Positions 3,484 to 7,161 of a DNA stretch of 64,000 nt are shown here, one piece after another. The position numbers were made by a program, and so were the translations under genes. The notes beneath the pieces are model-generated. The model ran no database searches. It had not been told where the DNA came from and saw only the letters and a list, made by a program, of their open reading frames with translations. How positions within the stretch are numbered: the stretch's first letter is position 1; every line of letters starts with the position of its first letter. The stretch is from an uncultured Clostridia bacterium (lineage in GTDB: Bacteria; Bacillota; Clostridia; Christensenellales; Borkfalkiaceae). The stretch lies in the NCBI GenBank assembly GCA_949290575.1, contig CASESJ010000004.1, forward strand, positions 48,981-112,980, read 5' to 3'.

Positions 3484-4512
3484 ATGGAAAAATATCACAA
3501 GACGGATATTGCGCCCGTCGAACAGGAGAACGAGCGAGACGAAAATTATGTTGCCAACAATCCGCAGATAGACTGCACTCGTACCCGAAACAACTACAAC
3601 GTCATTAAGCGACAATGCTCCTACACTCAGCATATCAACAAAAGGATAGCGGACCTTGACTTGCCTACAAAAGTTCGCAAGGACGCAGTTCTAATGTGTT
3701 CGTTTGTCGTGGGTTCGGACAGAGAGTTTTTCAAAAATCTGTCGGCGCGTGAACAGGAAAAATTTTTTGCAGACTGCACCCGCTTCTTTGCGGACAGATA
3801 CAGCGAAGAAAATATTATTTCCGCCGTAGTCCACATGGACGAAAGCACGCCGCACCTGCACTTAAATTTAATCCCGATTGCAGACGGCAGGCTCTGCGCC
3901 AAGCAACTGTTTAACCGCAAGGCGCTGCAAACCTTGCAGACAGACTTTCACGCTTTCGTGGGAAAGAAATGGAACTTACAGCGCGGCAAGGAAGGCAGCA
4001 CTGCCAAGCACCTTGACACTATGTCGTACAAGGTCAAAAAGATGAAAGACGAAGCCGTAGCCGCCGTATTGCAAGCATCCGACGCCGAAAGACGAAAAGA
4101 AGCCGCAGAGCAAAGCCAAGCCCACGCGGAACAAGTCACGCATGAGCTTGAGGAAAAGCGTGAGCAATTACAACGTGAAGTTGCTCCTCTTCAAGCCGCC
4201 GCGGACGCCGCACAGGAATACAATGCAGGAAAGAGAAAACCTAACAAGAGAGACGTGCCGGCACTTGCCGCCGAGAATGCAAGATTAAAACAAGAGCTCG
4301 AATACAGTATCAAAGACCAGCATGACGTCTTTCAGCTCTACCAGAAGACCGAACGCGAGCGGCTGTCGCTACAAGAGGACGCCAAGACTTTGAGAGAGCT
4401 ACGAGAGCAAGCGCCTGACAAGCTCAAAGAGGCGATTGCAACTGCTGAGCAGCGAAAGGCGGCAAAGCGCAACACTCCCTTCAAAAGTGCTGGCAATGGT
4501 TGGAGCAAGTAA
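3484..4512 (+). CDS. mob: MobV-family plasmid recombination/mobilisation relaxase (Mob_Pre)
   Basis: HxDExxPHxH motif 'VVHMDESTPHLHLNLIP' and an N-terminal relaxase region followed by a long coiled-coil, Glu/Ala/Lys-rich C-terminus. Confidence 0.9.
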   Translation: MEKYHKTDIAPVEQENERDENYVANNPQIDCTRTRNNYNVIKRQCSYTQHINKRIADLDLPTKVRKDAVLMCSFVVGSDREFFKNLSAREQEKFFADCTRFFADRYSEENIISAVVHMDESTPHLHLNLIPIADGRLCAKQLFNRKALQTLQTDFHAFVGKKWNLQRGKEGSTAKHLDTMSYKVKKMKDEAVAAVLQASDAERRKEAAEQSQAHAEQVTHELEEKREQLQREVAPLQAAADAAQEYNAGKRKPNKRDVPALAAENARLKQELEYSIKDQHDVFQLYQKTERERLSLQEDAKTLRELREQAPDKLKEAIATAEQRKAAKRNTPFKSAGNGWSK

Positions 4513-4558
4513 AACTGAATAACCGCTAAAAAGGAGGAATTTTTATCGAATAAAATTT

Positions 4559-4726
4559 ATGTCGAGAAGAAGGAAAAATGATACAGGGATACCCGATTAC
4601 ATAATTGATTCCCTTGCAAGGGCAATGTTGCCCGCCATTCAAGAATACCTTTCCACAGAAGAAGGACAACGCGAATTTGAAGAATGGCGAGCGCATAGAA
4701 ATTCACAACTTAATAACAAAACTTAA
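4559..4726 (+). CDS. Possible small ORF (55 aa, MSRRRKNDTGIPDYIIDSLARAMLPAIQEYLSTEEGQREFEEWRAHRNSQLNNKT)
   Basis: My own translation; it is below the ORF-track cutoff. The sequence looks helical and protein-like, but AGGAGG (4532-4537) is 21 nt from the ATG. Confidence 0.25.
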   Translation: MSRRRKNDTGIPDYIIDSLARAMLPAIQEYLSTEEGQREFEEWRAHRNSQLNNKT

Positions 4727-4862
4727 TATTTGTTCCCTTTAAAATGTACAGGGATAACCGTTAAATGTGTACGGTATATGCGAACCGCCGTGTGAGCGGT
4801 ATACAAATAGATTTACAGCCAGTCAAAAAGTTAAGCCGAGGGTTAAACCCACATAAACGGCA

Positions 4863-4901
4863 GGCGGTGGGTGCATTGCAATGCGCCCGCCGCCATTTTT
4901 G
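4863..4901 (+). terminator. Rho-independent terminator closing the mob transcription unit
   Basis: A 13-bp stem GGCGGTGGGTGCA/TGCGCCCGCCGCC (two G:U pairs, so specific to the plus strand) is followed by ATTTTTG. Confidence 0.7.
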
Positions 4902-4966
4902 TCAAAAAAATAAAAATATATGTGATTTAAATGTTTAACCTATGAAAAAGGTGTGTATTATATAAT

Positions 4967-5215
4967 AGCTAATACTCATGGTCGCATTATATTACCTCGC
5001 AAGGTTCGCGCATAGCGAATGGACCCTAATGGGTATTTCGTCGGGAGGAGTGCATGAAATCCAGACAGGTATTTAATTATTTCTACCTGTTCCTCTTGGG
5101 CGAGGGGCGCTTTGCGCCTCAGAAAAATTGATAATTACGATTCTAAACCATCCTGACATTACCGAAATTGTTTAATGGCATGGGCGAGGGTCTCAAGCTA
5201 ATTGAGATACTATTA
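4967..5215 (+). ncRNA. Candidate retron msr-msd-type structured leader RNA (boundaries unresolved)
   Basis: ORF-free stretch between the terminator and the SD of the 76-aa ORF, with TATAAT at 4961-4966. Hairpins at 5005-5019, 5023-5034, 5039-5102 (composite), 5104-5120 and 5191-5207. TGGGCGAGGG is duplicated at 5097-5106 and 5181-5190. Confidence 0.3.
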
Positions 5216-5235
5216 AACAAGGAGGTGTTAAACAA

Positions 5236-5466
5236 ATGTCAGCGAATAAAAATTTTGATAAGCATAACATTACTAATATTACTATCAATATTGGTAATGT
5301 CTATGTGCAAAACAATGTCTCTGCTACCAATGATTTACTTAAAAATGGTAGTGCTACTGAAAAATCAAGTTTTTATAATGTATTAGCTAGAATCGGTGGT
5401 TTTTTCAAAAGATTAGCAACAAAAATACTTTGTTTTATTCGCAATCTGTTGCTACTCTTGAACTAA
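5236..5466 (+). CDS. 76-aa protein of unknown function with a basic/hydrophobic C-terminal tail (candidate retron effector)
   Basis: AAGGAGG 5219-5225 lies 10 nt before the ATG. The C-terminus is FYNVLARIGGFFKRLATKILCFIRNLLLLLN. It sits directly upstream of the RT in the same orientation. Confidence 0.5.
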   Translation: MSANKNFDKHNITNITINIGNVYVQNNVSATNDLLKNGSATEKSSFYNVLARIGGFFKRLATKILCFIRNLLLLLN

Positions 5467-5507
5467 CATTATCAATTAATTTCTGATCAATAAATAAGTG
5501 ATAGCTT

Positions 5508-6473
5508 ATGAATTATAAATTATGCCCTCTGTACGGACTTAAATCCAAAAAAACGTTAAAAGAATTGCTAGGAATGGATACTCCTAGCTTTTTAACTATT
5601 AATGCCAAATCCATATCAGGTACAATAAAACCCAGAATTGACTACAAAAAGGGAAAGAGCAGATTAGTTGAGCCGCCGTATTACCAATTAAAACTAGCAC
5701 AAGCTAGATTATTAAAATATCTTCAAAAAATAGATTACGAGCCGTATGTTTTTTCTGGAATTAAGGGACGCACTGTAGCAGATAATGCTAGAATACATTG
5801 CGGTTACAAATATGTATATCAAACAGATTTGTCAAAATTTTTTCCGCATATAACCCGAAATAAGGTTTATTATTTCTTTTTAAAAAAAATGGCAATGTCA
5901 GAGGATGTATCCAAGATTTTGGCGGATATTTGCACGATTGATTATAAGTATGTAGACAATCAAAAATATAAAGAAGTATATGACTTTCTCATCTCTAATG
6001 GGCTCAAACCAAATACGCATTTAATGACAGGCTCTCCTGTAAGTTGCATTTTATCATATCTGGTAAACCTTGATATGTTTAATCTTATTTATCATAAAGG
6101 AATAAAAAATAATATAGCTATTAGTATTTACATAGACGATATAACCTTCTCATCAATCAACCCAATATCCAATAGTTTTATCTCATGTATAACTAAAACA
6201 TTAAAGCATTTTGGATATAAAATTTCTGCGCATAAATGTGAATATAATATACCGGGCAAAGTAAAGAAAATAACTGGCGTTATCATTGATAAAAACGGTG
6301 CAATGAAAGTTGCTAACCATATCAAATATCGTGTCCATTCAGGACTTAGCGCATTAAAACGATTTGAAAGCACTGATATGAGTAAATTGAAAGGCTATCT
6401 CAGTTTTAGCGCGATAATAGAGCCAAAATATGCAACAACACAAAAGCTGATTTATGAAAAATACCAAACATAA
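5508..6473 (+). CDS. Retron-type reverse transcriptase (stand-alone RT, 321 aa)
   Basis: Ordered motifs: RLVEPPYYQLKLAQ; ADNARIH (NAxxH); YQTDLSKFFPHI; TGSPVSCILSYLVNLDM; YIDDITFS (YxDD); GYKISAHK; KKITGVIID (VTG-type); KGYLSFS tail. No maturase, endonuclease or other fused domain. Confidence 0.85.
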   Translation: MNYKLCPLYGLKSKKTLKELLGMDTPSFLTINAKSISGTIKPRIDYKKGKSRLVEPPYYQLKLAQARLLKYLQKIDYEPYVFSGIKGRTVADNARIHCGYKYVYQTDLSKFFPHITRNKVYYFFLKKMAMSEDVSKILADICTIDYKYVDNQKYKEVYDFLISNGLKPNTHLMTGSPVSCILSYLVNLDMFNLIYHKGIKNNIAISIYIDDITFSSINPISNSFISCITKTLKHFGYKISAHKCEYNIPGKVKKITGVIIDKNGAMKVANHIKYRVHSGLSALKRFESTDMSKLKGYLSFSAIIEPKYATTQKLIYEKYQT

Positions 6474-6477
6474 AGTG

Positions 6478-6512
6478 AGGGATTGCTATTTACAGCAATC
6501 CCTTAAATTTTA
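6478..6512 (+). terminator. Intrinsic terminator after the RT gene
   Basis: 10-bp stem AGGGATTGCT/AGCAATCCCT with a 6-nt loop, followed by taaatttt (weak U-tract). Confidence 0.5.
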
Positions 6513-6530
6513 CTTACACTCACTTATAAT

Positions 6531-6578
6531 AAGAGAAAATCCGAACCATTCGCTGGATATCAGCAAATAATTCGGATT
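6531..6578 (-). terminator. Probable terminator of the tRNA operon
   Basis: AATCCGAA(6538-6545)/TTCGGATT(6571-6578) stem with an inner GCTG/CAGC stem. On the minus strand it is followed by TTTTCTCTT. The loop is large. Confidence 0.4.
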
Positions 6579-6587
6579 ATACCTCTT

Positions 6588-6663
6588 TGGTGCACCTTCA
6601 GGGACTCGAACCCTGGGCCCACTGATTAAGAGTCAGTTGCTCTACCAACTGAGCTAAAGGTGC
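6588..6663 (-). tRNA. tRNA-Lys (anticodon CTT)
   Basis: Manual cloverleaf. Acceptor GCACCTT/AAGGTGC plus A-CCA, anticodon arm ACTGA-CTCTTAA-TCAGT, T-arm CAGGG-TTCGAGT-CCCTG. Confidence 0.9.
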
Positions 6664-6697
6664 ATCTGTATTATTTACACTTGTGTGCGTTATGACA

Positions 6698-6773
6698 TGG
6701 TGATCCATCCGAGATTCGAACCCGGGACACCGTGATTAAAAGTCACGTGCTCTGCCGACTGAGCTAATGGACC
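6698..6773 (-). tRNA. tRNA-Lys (anticodon TTT)
   Basis: Acceptor GGTCCAT/ATGGATC plus A-CCA, anticodon arm CGTGA-CTTTTAA-TCACG, GTTCGAATC T-loop. Confidence 0.9.
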
Positions 6774-6782
6774 AGAATAATT

Positions 6783-6857
6783 TGGCTGGGGTGGCAGGAT
6801 TTGAACCTACGAATGCGGGAATCAAAATCCCGTGCCTTACCGCTTGGCGACACCCCA
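6783..6857 (-). tRNA. tRNA-Gln (anticodon TTG)
   Basis: Acceptor TGGGGTG/CACCCCA plus G-CCA, anticodon arm CGGGA-TTTTGAT-TCCCG. Confidence 0.9.
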
Positions 6858-6889
6858 ATAATTTTCGCGTGGGGGCGCTGTTTAATTTG

Positions 6890-6966
6890 TGGGGCGGGCG
6901 ACAAGTTTCGAACTTGCTACCTCCAGAGCCACAATCTGGCGCTCTACCGATTGAGCTACGCCCGCC
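6890..6966 (-). tRNA. tRNA-His (anticodon GTG) with encoded G-1
   Basis: 5' GGCGGGCG (extra G-1), discriminator C then CCA, anticodon arm CCAGA-TTGTGGC-TCTGG. Confidence 0.9.
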
Positions 6967-6978
6967 ATAAGTAGTTTG

Positions 6979-7055
6979 TGGTGCGCCTGGAGAGATTCGA
7001 ACCCCCGACACACGGCTTAGAAGGCCGTTGCTCTATCCTACTGAGCTACAGGCGC
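6979..7055 (-). tRNA. tRNA-Arg (anticodon TCT)
   Basis: Acceptor GCGCCTG/CAGGCGC plus A-CCA, anticodon arm ACGGC-CTTCTAA-GCCGT. The T-stem has two G:U pairs. Confidence 0.85.
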
Positions 7056-7087
7056 ATATCAGCATTGCGCCGCGAGCCTTATTTTAC

Positions 7088-7161
7088 TGGAGCGGGTGAT
7101 GGGAATCGAACCCACGCAACCAGCTTGGAAGGCTAGTGTTCTACCATTGAACTACACCCGC
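7088..7161 (-). tRNA. tRNA-Gly (anticodon TCC)
   Basis: Acceptor GCGGGTG/CACCCGC plus T-CCA, anticodon arm CTAGC-CTTCCAA-GCTGG. Confidence 0.9.

What the first reader, a model, noticed from the sequence alone, without database searches (positions are those of the whole stretch)
4967..5215. Candidate msr/msd leader: several hairpins and a duplicated 10-mer, but no clear a1/a2 pair
SEEN in the sequence:
- TATAAT at 4961-4966, with only a poor -35 element.
- Small hairpins TTCGC/GCGAA (5005-5019) and ACCC/GGGT (5023-5034).
- A composite hairpin at 5039-5102, with inner stem ACAGGTA/TACCTGT and outer stem CGTCGGGAGG/CCTCTTGGGCG using G:U pairs and a 15-nt asymmetric bulge.
- GGGGCGC-ttt-GCGCCTC at 5104-5120.
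- TCTCAA-gctaa-TTGAGA at 5191-5207, just before the SD.
- An exact direct repeat TGGGCGAGGG at 5097-5106 and 5181-5190.
Either copy of the repeat can pair with CCTCGC at 4995-5000, but only over 6 bp. An alternative AU-rich pairing is TAATAG..AT.CTCA (4963-4978) with TGAG.AT..CTATTA (5203-5215). INFERENCE. Small 5' hairpins followed by a longer 3' hairpin is the layout expected of msr then msd. Retron ncRNAs normally show a clearer terminal a1/a2 duplex, so the boundaries and the branching G are unresolved.
Basis: partly seen in the sequence, partly recalled or inferred. Interest (0 to 1): 0.6.

Follow-up and report, generated by a model that had tools for sequence, protein, structure and literature searches.

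The report
Retron template RNA fused to toxin mRNA
The hairpin-rich leader is very likely the template RNA (msr-msd) of a phage-defence retron, fused in one transcript to a switch that keeps a small toxin gene silent; it belongs to a gut-Clostridia branch of Type VI retrons that lacks the usual HTH regulator protein.

Summary
The downstream 321-aa ORF is a retron reverse transcriptase (RT) of PADLOC class RT_VI (E 1.2e-65).

I compared the window with 22 parsed Clostridia loci (RT 38-42% identical), out of 26 such loci recovered. All 23 sequences share one layout:
- a -10 box 28-31 nt upstream of a1;
- a1 (4995-5000), an invariant GG (5003-5004), hairpin H1, NGG, hairpin H2;
- a long variable hairpin (the msd);
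- direct-repeat copy 1, then IR1;
- a long hairpin that holds repeat copy 2 in a bulge and ends at the SD and AUG;
- the small ORF (SP), then IR2 right after its stop codon.

The repeat sequence differs between lineages. Within each locus the two copies stay identical and a1 stays complementary to them.

H1 is paired in 100% of cells, and all five pairs show compensatory changes. A model of the msr built without the window finds 4990-5038 as its best hit in 64 kb.

The layout matches the "hybrid RNA" described in 2025-26 preprints on Type VI retrons. This clade, however, has no HTH gene.

Priming site, msDNA ends and the toxin switch are inferred, not shown. I rate it a new variant of a known kind, of moderate interest.

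The parts
4863..4901 (+). Intrinsic terminator that closes the upstream (relaxase) unit, so the retron has its own transcript.
   Evidence: 14-bp stem with 10 GC pairs, followed by a T tail.
4961..4966 (+). -10 box TATAAT. The predicted transcription start is near 4973.
   Evidence: In most homologous loci a -10 box lies 28-31 nt upstream of a1. The -35 is poor in the window (2/6).
4995..5000 (+). a1 (CCUCGC), complementary to both copies of the direct repeat.
   Evidence: a1 changes with the repeat in every lineage. Duplex energy with a locus's own repeat averages -12.0 kcal/mol, against -7.3 +/- 2.4 across lineages.
5003..5004 (+). Invariant GG, the candidate branching (priming) G. A second invariant GG lies at 5021-5022.
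   Evidence: both GG pairs are invariant in all 23 sequences of alignment A6.
5005..5019 (+). msr hairpin H1 (UUCGC/GCGAA).
   Evidence: 100% of 109 cells are paired. All 5 pairs show changes on both sides. Covariation score is 0.873 against 0.412 for shuffles (0 of 500 reach it).
5023..5034 (+). msr hairpin H2 (ACCC/GGGU).
   Evidence: a hairpin of 4-10 bp follows the NGG in all 23 sequences. It is compensated against group A (ACAUC/GAUGU).
5039..5099 (+). Long, lineage-variable hairpin: the presumed msd, i.e. the template for the cDNA.
   Evidence: Its length (about 60-150 nt) and sequence vary between lineages, as expected of an msd. A metagenome variant, T5041C, turns a U.G pair into C-G at the base of the stem (low depth).
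5097..5106 (+). Direct-repeat copy 1. Its core, 5100-5105, is a2, the partner of a1.
   Evidence: The a1:copy-1 stem closes the minimum-free-energy fold of 4993-5108 and of the full RNA.
5104..5120 (+). Hairpin H3 (GGGGCGC uuu GCGCCUC). It overlaps the 3' end of repeat copy 1.
   Evidence: A hairpin is present at this place in groups A and B but absent in group C.
5119..5135 (+). IR1, the 5' arm of the long-range duplex that encloses the switch and the ORF76 coding sequence.
   Evidence: (I14: 10 of 10 nt complementary).
5153..5163 (+). Anti-start and partial anti-SD strand. CUGACAU pairs with AUGUCAG (5236-5242). UACC pairs with GGUG (5224-5227).
5168..5178 (+). 5' strand of stem Pr.
   Evidence: Four consecutive pairs are compensated relative to group A.
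5181..5190 (+). Direct-repeat copy 2, unpaired in a 5'-side bulge of the SD-proximal hairpin.
   Evidence: it holds the same position (31-42 nt before the SD) and the same bulged context in all 22 sequences folded.
5191..5207 (+). Hairpin H4 (UCUCAA gcuaa UUGAGA).
5210..5220 (+). 3' strand of stem Pr, abutting the SD.
5219..5225 (+). Shine-Dalgarno sequence AAGGAGG of ORF76.
   Evidence: It is conserved in all loci.
5236..5466 (+). ORF76, the small protein (SP) and presumed toxic effector. It has a polar N-terminal half and a basic amphipathic C-terminal helix.
   Evidence: one 64%-identical homologue; an SP gene lies directly upstream of the RT in all 26 Clostridia loci; shared layout; helix at residues 43-75, pLDDT about 80-87; 6 K/R, no D/E.
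5467..5487 (+). IR2, the 3' arm of the long-range duplex. It starts one base after the ORF76 stop codon, and the functional RNA probably ends here.
   Evidence: IR1:IR2 energy within a locus averages -17.1 kcal/mol, against -9.7 +/- 2.8 across lineages. Four different sequences keep the pairing.
5508..6473 (+). Retron reverse transcriptase.
   Evidence: PADLOC RT_VI, E 1.2e-65, over the full length. RVT_1; the NAxxH (NARIH), YIDD and ITG motifs are present.
6476..6505 (+). Terminator that closes the cassette.

Best explanation
Window ~4973-5487 encodes one structured transcript of about 515 nt. It is the counterpart of the 'hybrid RNA' (hyRNA) of Type VI retrons. The finding (4967-5215) is its non-coding 5' part.

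SHOWN by sequence comparison:
- an msr: a1 4995-5000, invariant GG 5003-5004, H1, UGG, H2;
- a variable long hairpin (msd, 5039-5099);
- a2, which is direct-repeat copy 1 (5097-5106);
- IR1 (5119-5135), which pairs with IR2 (5467-5487) just past the ORF76 stop codon;
- a long hairpin (5151-5245) that carries repeat copy 2 in a bulge and pairs the start codon and part of the SD.

INFERRED from the family, by analogy with Retron-Vpa2 (bioRxiv 10.1101/2025.10.22.683967):
- the RT (5508-6473) binds the msr and primes from a G next to the a1/a2 duplex;
- it copies the long hairpin into single-stranded DNA;
- this DNA, or the a1 strand it sets free, then binds the bulged repeat copy 2 and opens the hairpin;
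- ORF76, a small membrane-active toxin, is then translated and stops growth of the phage-infected cell.

Unlike the described Type VI retrons, there is no HTH protein. Silencing would therefore rest on the RNA alone.
For: RT class:
- PADLOC RT_VI at 1.2e-65, against 6e-36 for the next class;
- retron motifs present;
- it is the only RT_VI in the genome.

Conserved layout in the window and 22 parsed Clostridia loci whose RTs are 38-42% identical to the window's.

Direct repeat:
- present at the same two places in the window and 21 of the 22 other loci checked;
- at least seven different sequences across lineages.

a1:
- complementary to a locus's own repeats, -12.0 against -7.3 +/- 2.4 kcal/mol across lineages;
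- ensembles pair it with copy 1.

H1: 100% paired, 5 of 5 pairs compensated, 0 of 500 shuffles reach the score.

SD-proximal hairpin: 24 pairs, 16 of them with changes on both sides, 0 of 500 shuffles.

IR1:IR2: -17.1 against -9.7 +/- 2.8 kcal/mol.

Leave-one-out msr model: its best hit in the 64-kb window is 4990-5038, at 23.7 bits and E 0.0045.

Fold z-scores: -2.6, -3.3 and -5.7.

Link to canonical Type VI:
- HTH-bearing loci carry direct repeats with the same GGGCGA core;
- the published description of the hyRNA matches: msr-msd arm, sequestered RBS and AUG, inverted repeats around the SP gene, 7-nt direct repeats.
Against: - No experimental data exist for this locus: no RNA run holds it, and no msDNA evidence is available.
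- The a1/a2 stem is only 6 bp in the window.
- A leave-one-out model of the SD-proximal hairpin does not recover the window's copy. That part therefore rests on the window's own fold, the position of repeat copy 2, and compensated pairs relative to group A.
- The msr model does not detect canonical HTH-bearing Type VI leaders, so RNA homology with the studied systems is architectural, not demonstrated.
- In the window the SD is only partly paired (2 of 5 nt). In most relatives it is fully paired.
- If a1:copy 1 is the priming duplex in the classical manner, repeat copy 1 would not be reverse-transcribed. This conflicts with the simple 'cDNA of copy 1 binds copy 2' model.
- ORF76 has no significant sequence similarity to the SPs of canonical loci.
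Confidence: 0.8

Rival explanations
1. The region is a retron hyRNA, but with different template limits and a different switch. Reverse transcription would start at the IR1 boundary (about 5125), as mapped in Retron-Vpa2. The msDNA (about 85 nt) would then include H3 and the complement of repeat copy 1, and that DNA would pair directly with bulged repeat copy 2. The complementarity of a1 to the repeats would be regulatory rather than the priming duplex.
For: The Vpa2 msDNA is a 63-nt stem-loop plus a 23-nt 5' extension, which contains a stem-loop and the repeat. The window offers 5039-5102 (64 nt) plus 5103-5125 (23 nt, containing H3). The two repeat copies are identical over 1-3 nt beyond the part complementary to a1. 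In L037 repeat copy 1 sits in the loop of a small hairpin 3' of the long one.
Against: No conserved G follows IR2 where a primer would be needed; in group C that stretch is U-rich. The invariant GG lies next to a1. In folds of most loci a1:copy 1 closes a classical retron shape. In group C, IR1 follows copy 1 directly and there is no H3.
Confidence: 0.3
2. The leader is only a cis-acting translational regulator (5' UTR) of ORF76. No cDNA is made from it, and the RT either acts on another template or is non-catalytic.
For: No msDNA was seen for any of six Type VI retrons in a census, or for Vpa2 and Eco12 at baseline. The SD-proximal hairpin by itself explains part of the structure.
Against: The 5' half (a1-GG-H1-NGG-H2-long hairpin-a2) plays no part in occluding the SD, yet it is conserved and covaries. 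The RT keeps its catalytic YIDD. In Vpa2 and Sen3, RT-dependent ssDNA from the equivalent hairpin was eventually shown.
Confidence: 0.08
3. The hairpins and the 10-mer repeat are chance features of an AT-rich intergenic region.
For: The leader alone has only a modest fold z-score of -2.05. The a1/a2 stem is short.
Against: Position-for-position conservation in the window and 22 other loci despite sequence turnover, with compensatory changes. All control tests are exceeded.
Confidence: 0.02

Closest known systems
Retron-Vpa2 (Type VI retron, Vibrio parahaemolyticus) and its hybrid RNA; Zhang et al., bioRxiv 10.1101/2025.10.22.683967
   Same: Both have an RT of class VI and a small toxic protein gene directly after a structured leader. 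In both, one transcript joins the msr-msd to the SP coding sequence. The RBS and start codon lie in stem-loops, and inverted repeats tie the 3' end (after the SP gene) back to the msr-msd arm. Both have a short direct repeat with one copy next to the msd and one in a loop of the translational switch. The long hairpin is about 63-64 nt.
   Different: The window has no HTH gene; in Vpa2 the HTH represses reverse transcription, and its loss is toxic. The host is a Clostridia bacterium rather than a Vibrio. There is no detectable RNA or SP sequence similarity. Here a1 is complementary to both repeat copies, and copy 1 lies at the foot of the long hairpin rather than in a hairpin loop. Nothing has been tested experimentally.
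Retron-Sen3 and the cl2075 lineage (Type VI, Salmonella); Garcia-Rodriguez et al., bioRxiv 10.64898/2026.04.27.721009
   Same: Both have a structured ncRNA within about 280 nt of the SP start, with terminal inverted repeats. Both have a long variable internal hairpin as msd candidate, an occluded SP RBS, and an IR1 (3' of the msd hairpin) that pairs with an IR2 just after the SP stop codon.
   Different: Sen3 has an SP-HTH-RT gene order, with the HTH acting as a protein antitoxin; the window has SP-RT only. Sen3 makes ssDNA constitutively. The lineage is proteobacterial.
Classical retrons (e.g. Ec86/Eco1): msr-msd with a1/a2 and a branching G
   Same: Both have a 5' a1 and a 3' a2 around small msr hairpins and a long msd hairpin, a conserved G next to a1, and an RT with the NAxxH, YxDD and VTG-like motifs.
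   Different: In the window a1/a2 is only 6 bp and the conserved GG lies 2 nt (2-9 nt in relatives) from the stem. a2 is duplicated downstream. The ncRNA continues into an effector mRNA. No Rfam family matches the leader.

Membership tests
Retron (RT + msr-msd ncRNA) | A reverse transcriptase of the retron clade. | tested here: met
   The 25 best of 36 PADLOC matches (those listed) are all retron RT models, RT_VI best at 1.2e-65. NCBIfam retron_St85_RT scores 6.9e-36, below its cutoff. The NARIH, YIDD and ITG motifs are present.
Retron (RT + msr-msd ncRNA) | An adjacent ncRNA with terminal inverted repeats a1/a2 around msr hairpins and an msd hairpin. | tested here: met
   a1 4995-5000 pairs with a2 5100-5105 over 6 bp. 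The pairing covaries across at least 7 repeat types. It closes the minimum-free-energy fold. A leave-one-out msr model hits 4990-5038.
Retron (RT + msr-msd ncRNA) | A conserved priming G next to a1. | tested here: inconclusive
   GG 5003-5004 is invariant in all 23 sequences, but so is GG 5021-5022. Which G branches cannot be read from sequence.
Retron (RT + msr-msd ncRNA) | Production of msDNA with a 2'-5' branch. | not testable with these tools
   No RNA or ssDNA data exist for this organism.
Type VI retron (Mestre et al. 2020, PMC7736814) | An RT of clade 3 / class VI. | tested here: met
   also a genome search with PDLC02952.
Type VI retron (Mestre et al. 2020, PMC7736814) | An adjacent Cro/C1-type HTH gene (cluster 2_1). 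| tested here: not met
   Only 41 nt separate ORF76 from the RT. No Pfam HTH is found in any ORF of at least 35 aa within 4520-6600. tblastn with three Type VI HTH proteins finds them in 16 other loci, but in none of the 26 Clostridia loci or the 64-kb window. The rest of the genome gives only weak XRE-like hits, E 0.004.
Type VI retron (Mestre et al. 2020, PMC7736814) | A small accessory protein (SP) gene upstream of the RT. | tested here: met
   ORF76 holds that position. It has a basic hydrophobic C-terminal helix. It shows no sequence similarity to the SPs of canonical loci.
Type VI hyRNA (Zhang et al. 2025) | Conserved direct repeats, one by the msd and one in the translational switch. 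| tested here: met
   The core GGGCGA is shared with canonical loci L037 and L029.
Type VI hyRNA (Zhang et al. 2025) | Inverted repeats that join the 3' end (after the SP gene) to the msr-msd arm. | tested here: met
   IR1 5119-5135 pairs with IR2 5468-5486, and the pairing covaries across four groups.
Type VI hyRNA (Zhang et al. 2025) | [quoted passage not shown] | tested here: inconclusive
   In the window the AUG is fully paired and 2 of 5 SD nt are paired (z -3.3). Relatives pair the whole SD. The leave-one-out model R3 does not recover the window's copy.

The most novel reading that the evidence does not exclude
This gut-Clostridia clade would be a natural two-gene, HTH-less Type VI retron in which the toxin is held off by RNA alone. 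a1, repeat copy 1 and repeat copy 2 would form a three-way switch. In the resting RNA, a1 pairs with copy 1. When cDNA synthesis, or accumulating msDNA that hybridises to the msd, displaces a1, either the freed a1 or the cDNA copy of repeat 1 (which has the same sequence as a1) docks on the bulged copy 2. This opens the SD/AUG hairpin. If so, the msDNA-dependent translational switch proposed for Vpa2 works without any protein repressor or antitoxin. The conserved 7-nt repeats of all Type VI retrons would then be read by an RNA strand as well as by DNA.
Probability: 0.3. Interest if true: 0.7.

Novelty: new variant of a known kind. Interest (0 to 1): 0.5.

Why it matters
Type VI retrons invert the usual retron logic: the reverse-transcribed DNA switches the toxin on instead of holding it off. 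Their mechanism is only now being worked out, in two proteobacterial systems, and those two disagree on the role of the HTH protein (repressor of reverse transcription versus protein antitoxin).

A widespread gut-Clostridia clade that keeps the RT, the small toxin, the direct repeats and the inverted repeats around the toxin gene, but has no HTH, is a natural deletion experiment. It lets one ask whether the RNA switch alone can keep the toxin silent and fire it.

The comparative data also give something the published work on Proteobacteria may lack: repeat sequences that differ between lineages. They show that a1 and both repeat copies co-evolve as a triplet.

For annotation, the work gives exact coordinates of a retron ncRNA that no Rfam model detects. 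It also shows that tools requiring an HTH gene will miss or mislabel this clade.

Tried and rejected
The closest RT homologues (P0002-P0007, 56-68% identical) and the only ORF76 homologue (P0122) could therefore not be placed on DNA. Fine-scale covariation within the window's own lineage could not be tested.
- Scans for close relatives found nothing in genome contigs with the single protein, in metagenome contigs or in viral contigs. Plasmid hits were at most 32% identical.
- None of 60 related genomes has this RT.
- Rfam gave no family in the leader at E up to 10.
- No RNA holder is listed for this DNA. The laid DNA contigs gave only one SNP.
- RNAalifold on plain MAFFT alignments recovered only part of stem Pr. 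MAFFT misaligned the msr hairpins, so I parsed the helices by anchors.
- The leave-one-out model R3 of the SD-proximal hairpin does not find the window's copy. The 40.5-bit hit of R1 came from a model that contained the window and is not independent.
- The msr model R2 finds nothing in canonical HTH-bearing loci.
- a1:copy 2 as the main pairing is rejected. It appears only in the leader-only fold of the window.
- An anti-SD role for a1 (ACCUC/GAGGU) is rejected because it is not conserved in group A.
- The overlapping ORF 5168-5386 has no family match in Pfam and is taken as spurious.

Full report
**Observation.**
- the -10 box TATAAT at 4961-4966;
- the small hairpins at 5005-5019 and 5023-5034;
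- the composite hairpin at 5039-5102;
- GGGGCGC-ttt-GCGCCTC at 5104-5120;
- TCTCAA-gctaa-TTGAGA at 5191-5207;
- the exact 10-mer TGGGCGAGGG at 5097-5106 and 5181-5190;
- CCTCGC at 4995-5000, complementary to both copies.

The leader alone folds only slightly better than shuffles (z -2.05). Its two modules do better: 4993-5108 gives z -2.6 and 5150-5245 gives z -3.3. The whole stretch through ORF76 to the RT start gives z -5.7.

**Context.**
- The ORF at 5508-6473 is a reverse transcriptase (RT) (RVT_1). Its best model is PADLOC RT_VI (E 1.2e-65, full length; next class 6e-36). It keeps the NARIH, YIDD and ITG motifs.
- ORF76 (5236-5466) has no family and one 64%-identical homologue.
- An intrinsic terminator lies upstream (4863-4894) and another downstream (6476-6505), so the cassette is bracketed.
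- The cassette lies between a Mob_Pre relaxase gene (3484-4512) and six tRNA genes on the other strand.
- None of 60 related genomes has this RT, so it is mobile cargo.

**What is known.** Type VI retrons were defined by a clade-3 RT, a Cro/C1 HTH protein and often a small protein, SP (PMC7736814). Two recent preprints describe their RNA.
- In Retron-Vpa2, a ~470-nt 'hybrid RNA' joins the msr-msd to the SP coding sequence. The RBS and AUG sit in stem-loops. The 3' end pairs back to the msr-msd arm. A 7-nt direct repeat occurs once by the msd and once in the translational switch. msDNA (a 63-nt stem-loop plus a 23-nt 5' extension) accumulates only on triggering and is needed for SP translation (10.1101/2025.10.22.683967).
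- In Retron-Sen3, IR1 (3' of the long hairpin) pairs with IR2 just after the SP stop codon, and the HTH acts as the antitoxin (10.64898/2026.04.27.721009).

**Comparative evidence.** Scans for them found nothing.

An alignment-based scan of species genomes gave 72 loci. Twenty-six of these are from Clostridia, with RTs 38-42% identical to the window's. In all 26 a 60-115-aa ORF lies directly upstream of the RT, at most 41 nt away or overlapping it, and no HTH gene lies between them.

The leaders of the window and 22 of these loci share one layout:
- a -10 box 28-31 nt upstream of a1;
- a1;
- a 2-9-nt spacer;
- an invariant GG;
- hairpin H1;
- (U/C)GG;
- hairpin H2;
- a U-rich linker;
- a long hairpin of variable length and sequence;
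- direct-repeat copy 1;
- a hairpin H3 (in some groups only);
- IR1;
- a long imperfect hairpin whose 5'-side bulge holds repeat copy 2 and whose base contains the SD;
- the SP gene;
- IR2 at the stop codon.

**The repeat and a1.** A direct repeat of at least 7 nt is found at the two homologous places in the window and 21 of the 22 other loci checked. Its sequence differs by lineage: GCGAGG, GCGAGAG, CAGGAG, GAAGGAG, GGGGAG, GAAGTC, GTGGAACG and GGGAG.

In each locus a1 is complementary to that locus's own repeat. Duplex energy of a1 with its own copy 1 averages -12.0 kcal/mol, against -7.3 +/- 2.4 with repeats of other lineages. For copy 2 the figures are -11.3 against -6.5. For the window, none of 21 cross-lineage pairings is as good as its own.

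In partition-function folds, a1 pairs with copy 1 in most loci and almost never with copy 2. In the window, P is 0.48 against 0.00 in the full RNA; the leader-only fold flips to copy 2.

The second repeat copy must serve a partner that has the sequence of a1.

**Helices.**
- H1: on alignment A6, all 109 cells are paired and all 5 pairs show changes on both sides. The covariation score is 0.873 against 0.412 for shuffles (0 of 500 reach it). Slid controls give at most 0.21.
- GG motifs: both (window 5003-5004 and 5021-5022) are invariant in all 23 sequences.
- SD-proximal hairpin: 24 consensus pairs, 81% of cells paired, 16 pairs with changes on both sides, 0 of 500 shuffles. The structure was derived from the same sequences, which favours it.
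- IR1:IR2: energy within a locus averages -17.1 kcal/mol against -9.7 +/- 2.8 across lineages. Four unrelated sequences keep the pairing, and IR2 always starts at the SP stop codon:
  - window: AAUUGAUAAU / AUUAUCAAUU
  - group A: UUUUGGUAUUA / UAAUACCAAAA
  - group B: UUGUGCUU / AAGCACAA
  - group C: UGUGCUGGUG / CACCAGCACA

**Independent tests for the window.**
- A covariance model of the msr built without the window (R2) has its best hit in the whole 64-kb window, on either strand, at 4990-5038 (23.7 bits, E 0.0045).
- The matching leave-one-out model of the SD-proximal hairpin (R3) does not find 5152-5229. The 40.5-bit hit of model R1 came from a model that contained the window and is not independent.
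- The window's copy of that hairpin therefore rests on three things. The first is its own fold. The second is the homologous position of repeat copy 2. The third is four consecutive compensated pairs in stem Pr relative to group A, read.
- In the window the start codon is fully paired (AUGUCAG with CUGACAU) but only 2 of 5 SD nucleotides are. Most relatives pair the whole SD with a CCUC/UCUC strand.

**HTH.**
- No ORF of at least 35 aa within 4520-6600 has an HTH domain.
- tblastn with the HTH proteins of three canonical loci finds that gene just upstream of the RT in 16 non-Clostridial loci. It finds it in none of the 26 Clostridia loci and nowhere in the window.
- The rest of the genome gives only weak XRE-like hits.
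- A metagenome survey likewise lists HTH_3 in only 21 of 93 Type VI candidates, 23 of which are from Bacillota (PMC13712802). HTH-less Type VI RTs are therefore on record but have not been studied.

**Link to canonical systems.**
- HTH-bearing loci also carry the direct repeat: GGGCGAA in L037, GGGCGA in L029 and GGGGAAC in L033/L028. The window's repeat shares the GGGCGA core.
- Their 5' leaders also contain a short complement of the repeat. I read this by eye.
- Models R1 and R2 do not detect these leaders.
- ORF76 has no significant similarity to their SPs.
- ORF76 does share the design: a polar N-terminal half and a basic amphipathic C-terminal helix. AlphaFold predicts a helix at residues 43-75 with pLDDT about 80-87. 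The helix has 6 K/R and no D/E.

**Mechanism.** The RNA architecture and its co-evolution are shown. The rest is inferred:
- The RT primes from a G beside a1/a2 and copies the long hairpin.
- The product, or the displaced a1, binds bulged repeat copy 2 and frees the AUG and SD.
- ORF76 is the toxin.

Two points stay open. First, classical priming at a1:copy 1 would give a cDNA of about 60 nt that lacks the complement of the repeat. A start at the IR1 boundary, as in Vpa2, would give about 85 nt that includes it; the window offers 64 + 23 nt against 63 + 23 nt in Vpa2. Second, it is unknown what replaces the HTH.

**Verdict.** It is an HTH-less Clostridial variant of the recently described Type VI retron hybrid RNA: a new variant of a known kind.

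Noticed in passing
window 5119-5135 and 5467-5487: A long-range inverted repeat encloses the translational switch and the whole ORF76 coding sequence. IR2 starts one base after the stop codon. The pairing is kept by four unrelated sequences in other lineages.
   Followed up: yes
window 5155-5163 and 5293-5301: The anti-start strand GACAUUACC is also perfectly complementary to GGUAAUGUC inside the ORF76 coding sequence (I4). This could be an alternative pairing that frees the start codon.
   Followed up: no
window 5041: A second gut-metagenome study (run X3) holds the locus with one difference, T5041C. The change turns a U.G pair at the foot of the msd hairpin into C-G. The contig depth is low (2.7), so it may be an error.
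   Followed up: partly
window 3484-4512 and 6591-7161: The retron cassette sits between a Mob_Pre (MobV) relaxase gene and a block of six tRNA genes on the minus strand. The RT is absent from 60 related genomes. In group B homologues the cassette lies directly downstream of a tyrosine-recombinase-like ORF. It looks like cargo of small mobilisable elements.
   Followed up: partly
L012, L016, L017, L021, L027 (region after the SP stop codon): In group C the GC-rich IR2 (CACCAGCACA) is followed by a run of U. Together with IR1 this resembles an intrinsic terminator with a ~330-nt 'loop'. It might set the 3' end of the hybrid RNA ahead of the RT gene.
   Followed up: no
L037:1486-1831, L029:1628-1973, L033:1715-2060: Canonical HTH-bearing Type VI loci carry the direct repeat (GGGCGAA, GGGCGA, GGGGAAC) and a short 5' complement of it. 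In L037 copy 1 lies in the loop of a small hairpin 3' of the long one.
   Followed up: partly
window 5508 (RT start): The RT gene has only a weak SD-like sequence (AAGUGA) upstream of its AUG, whereas most relatives have GAGG. RT expression may be low or coupled to the upstream RNA.
   Followed up: no
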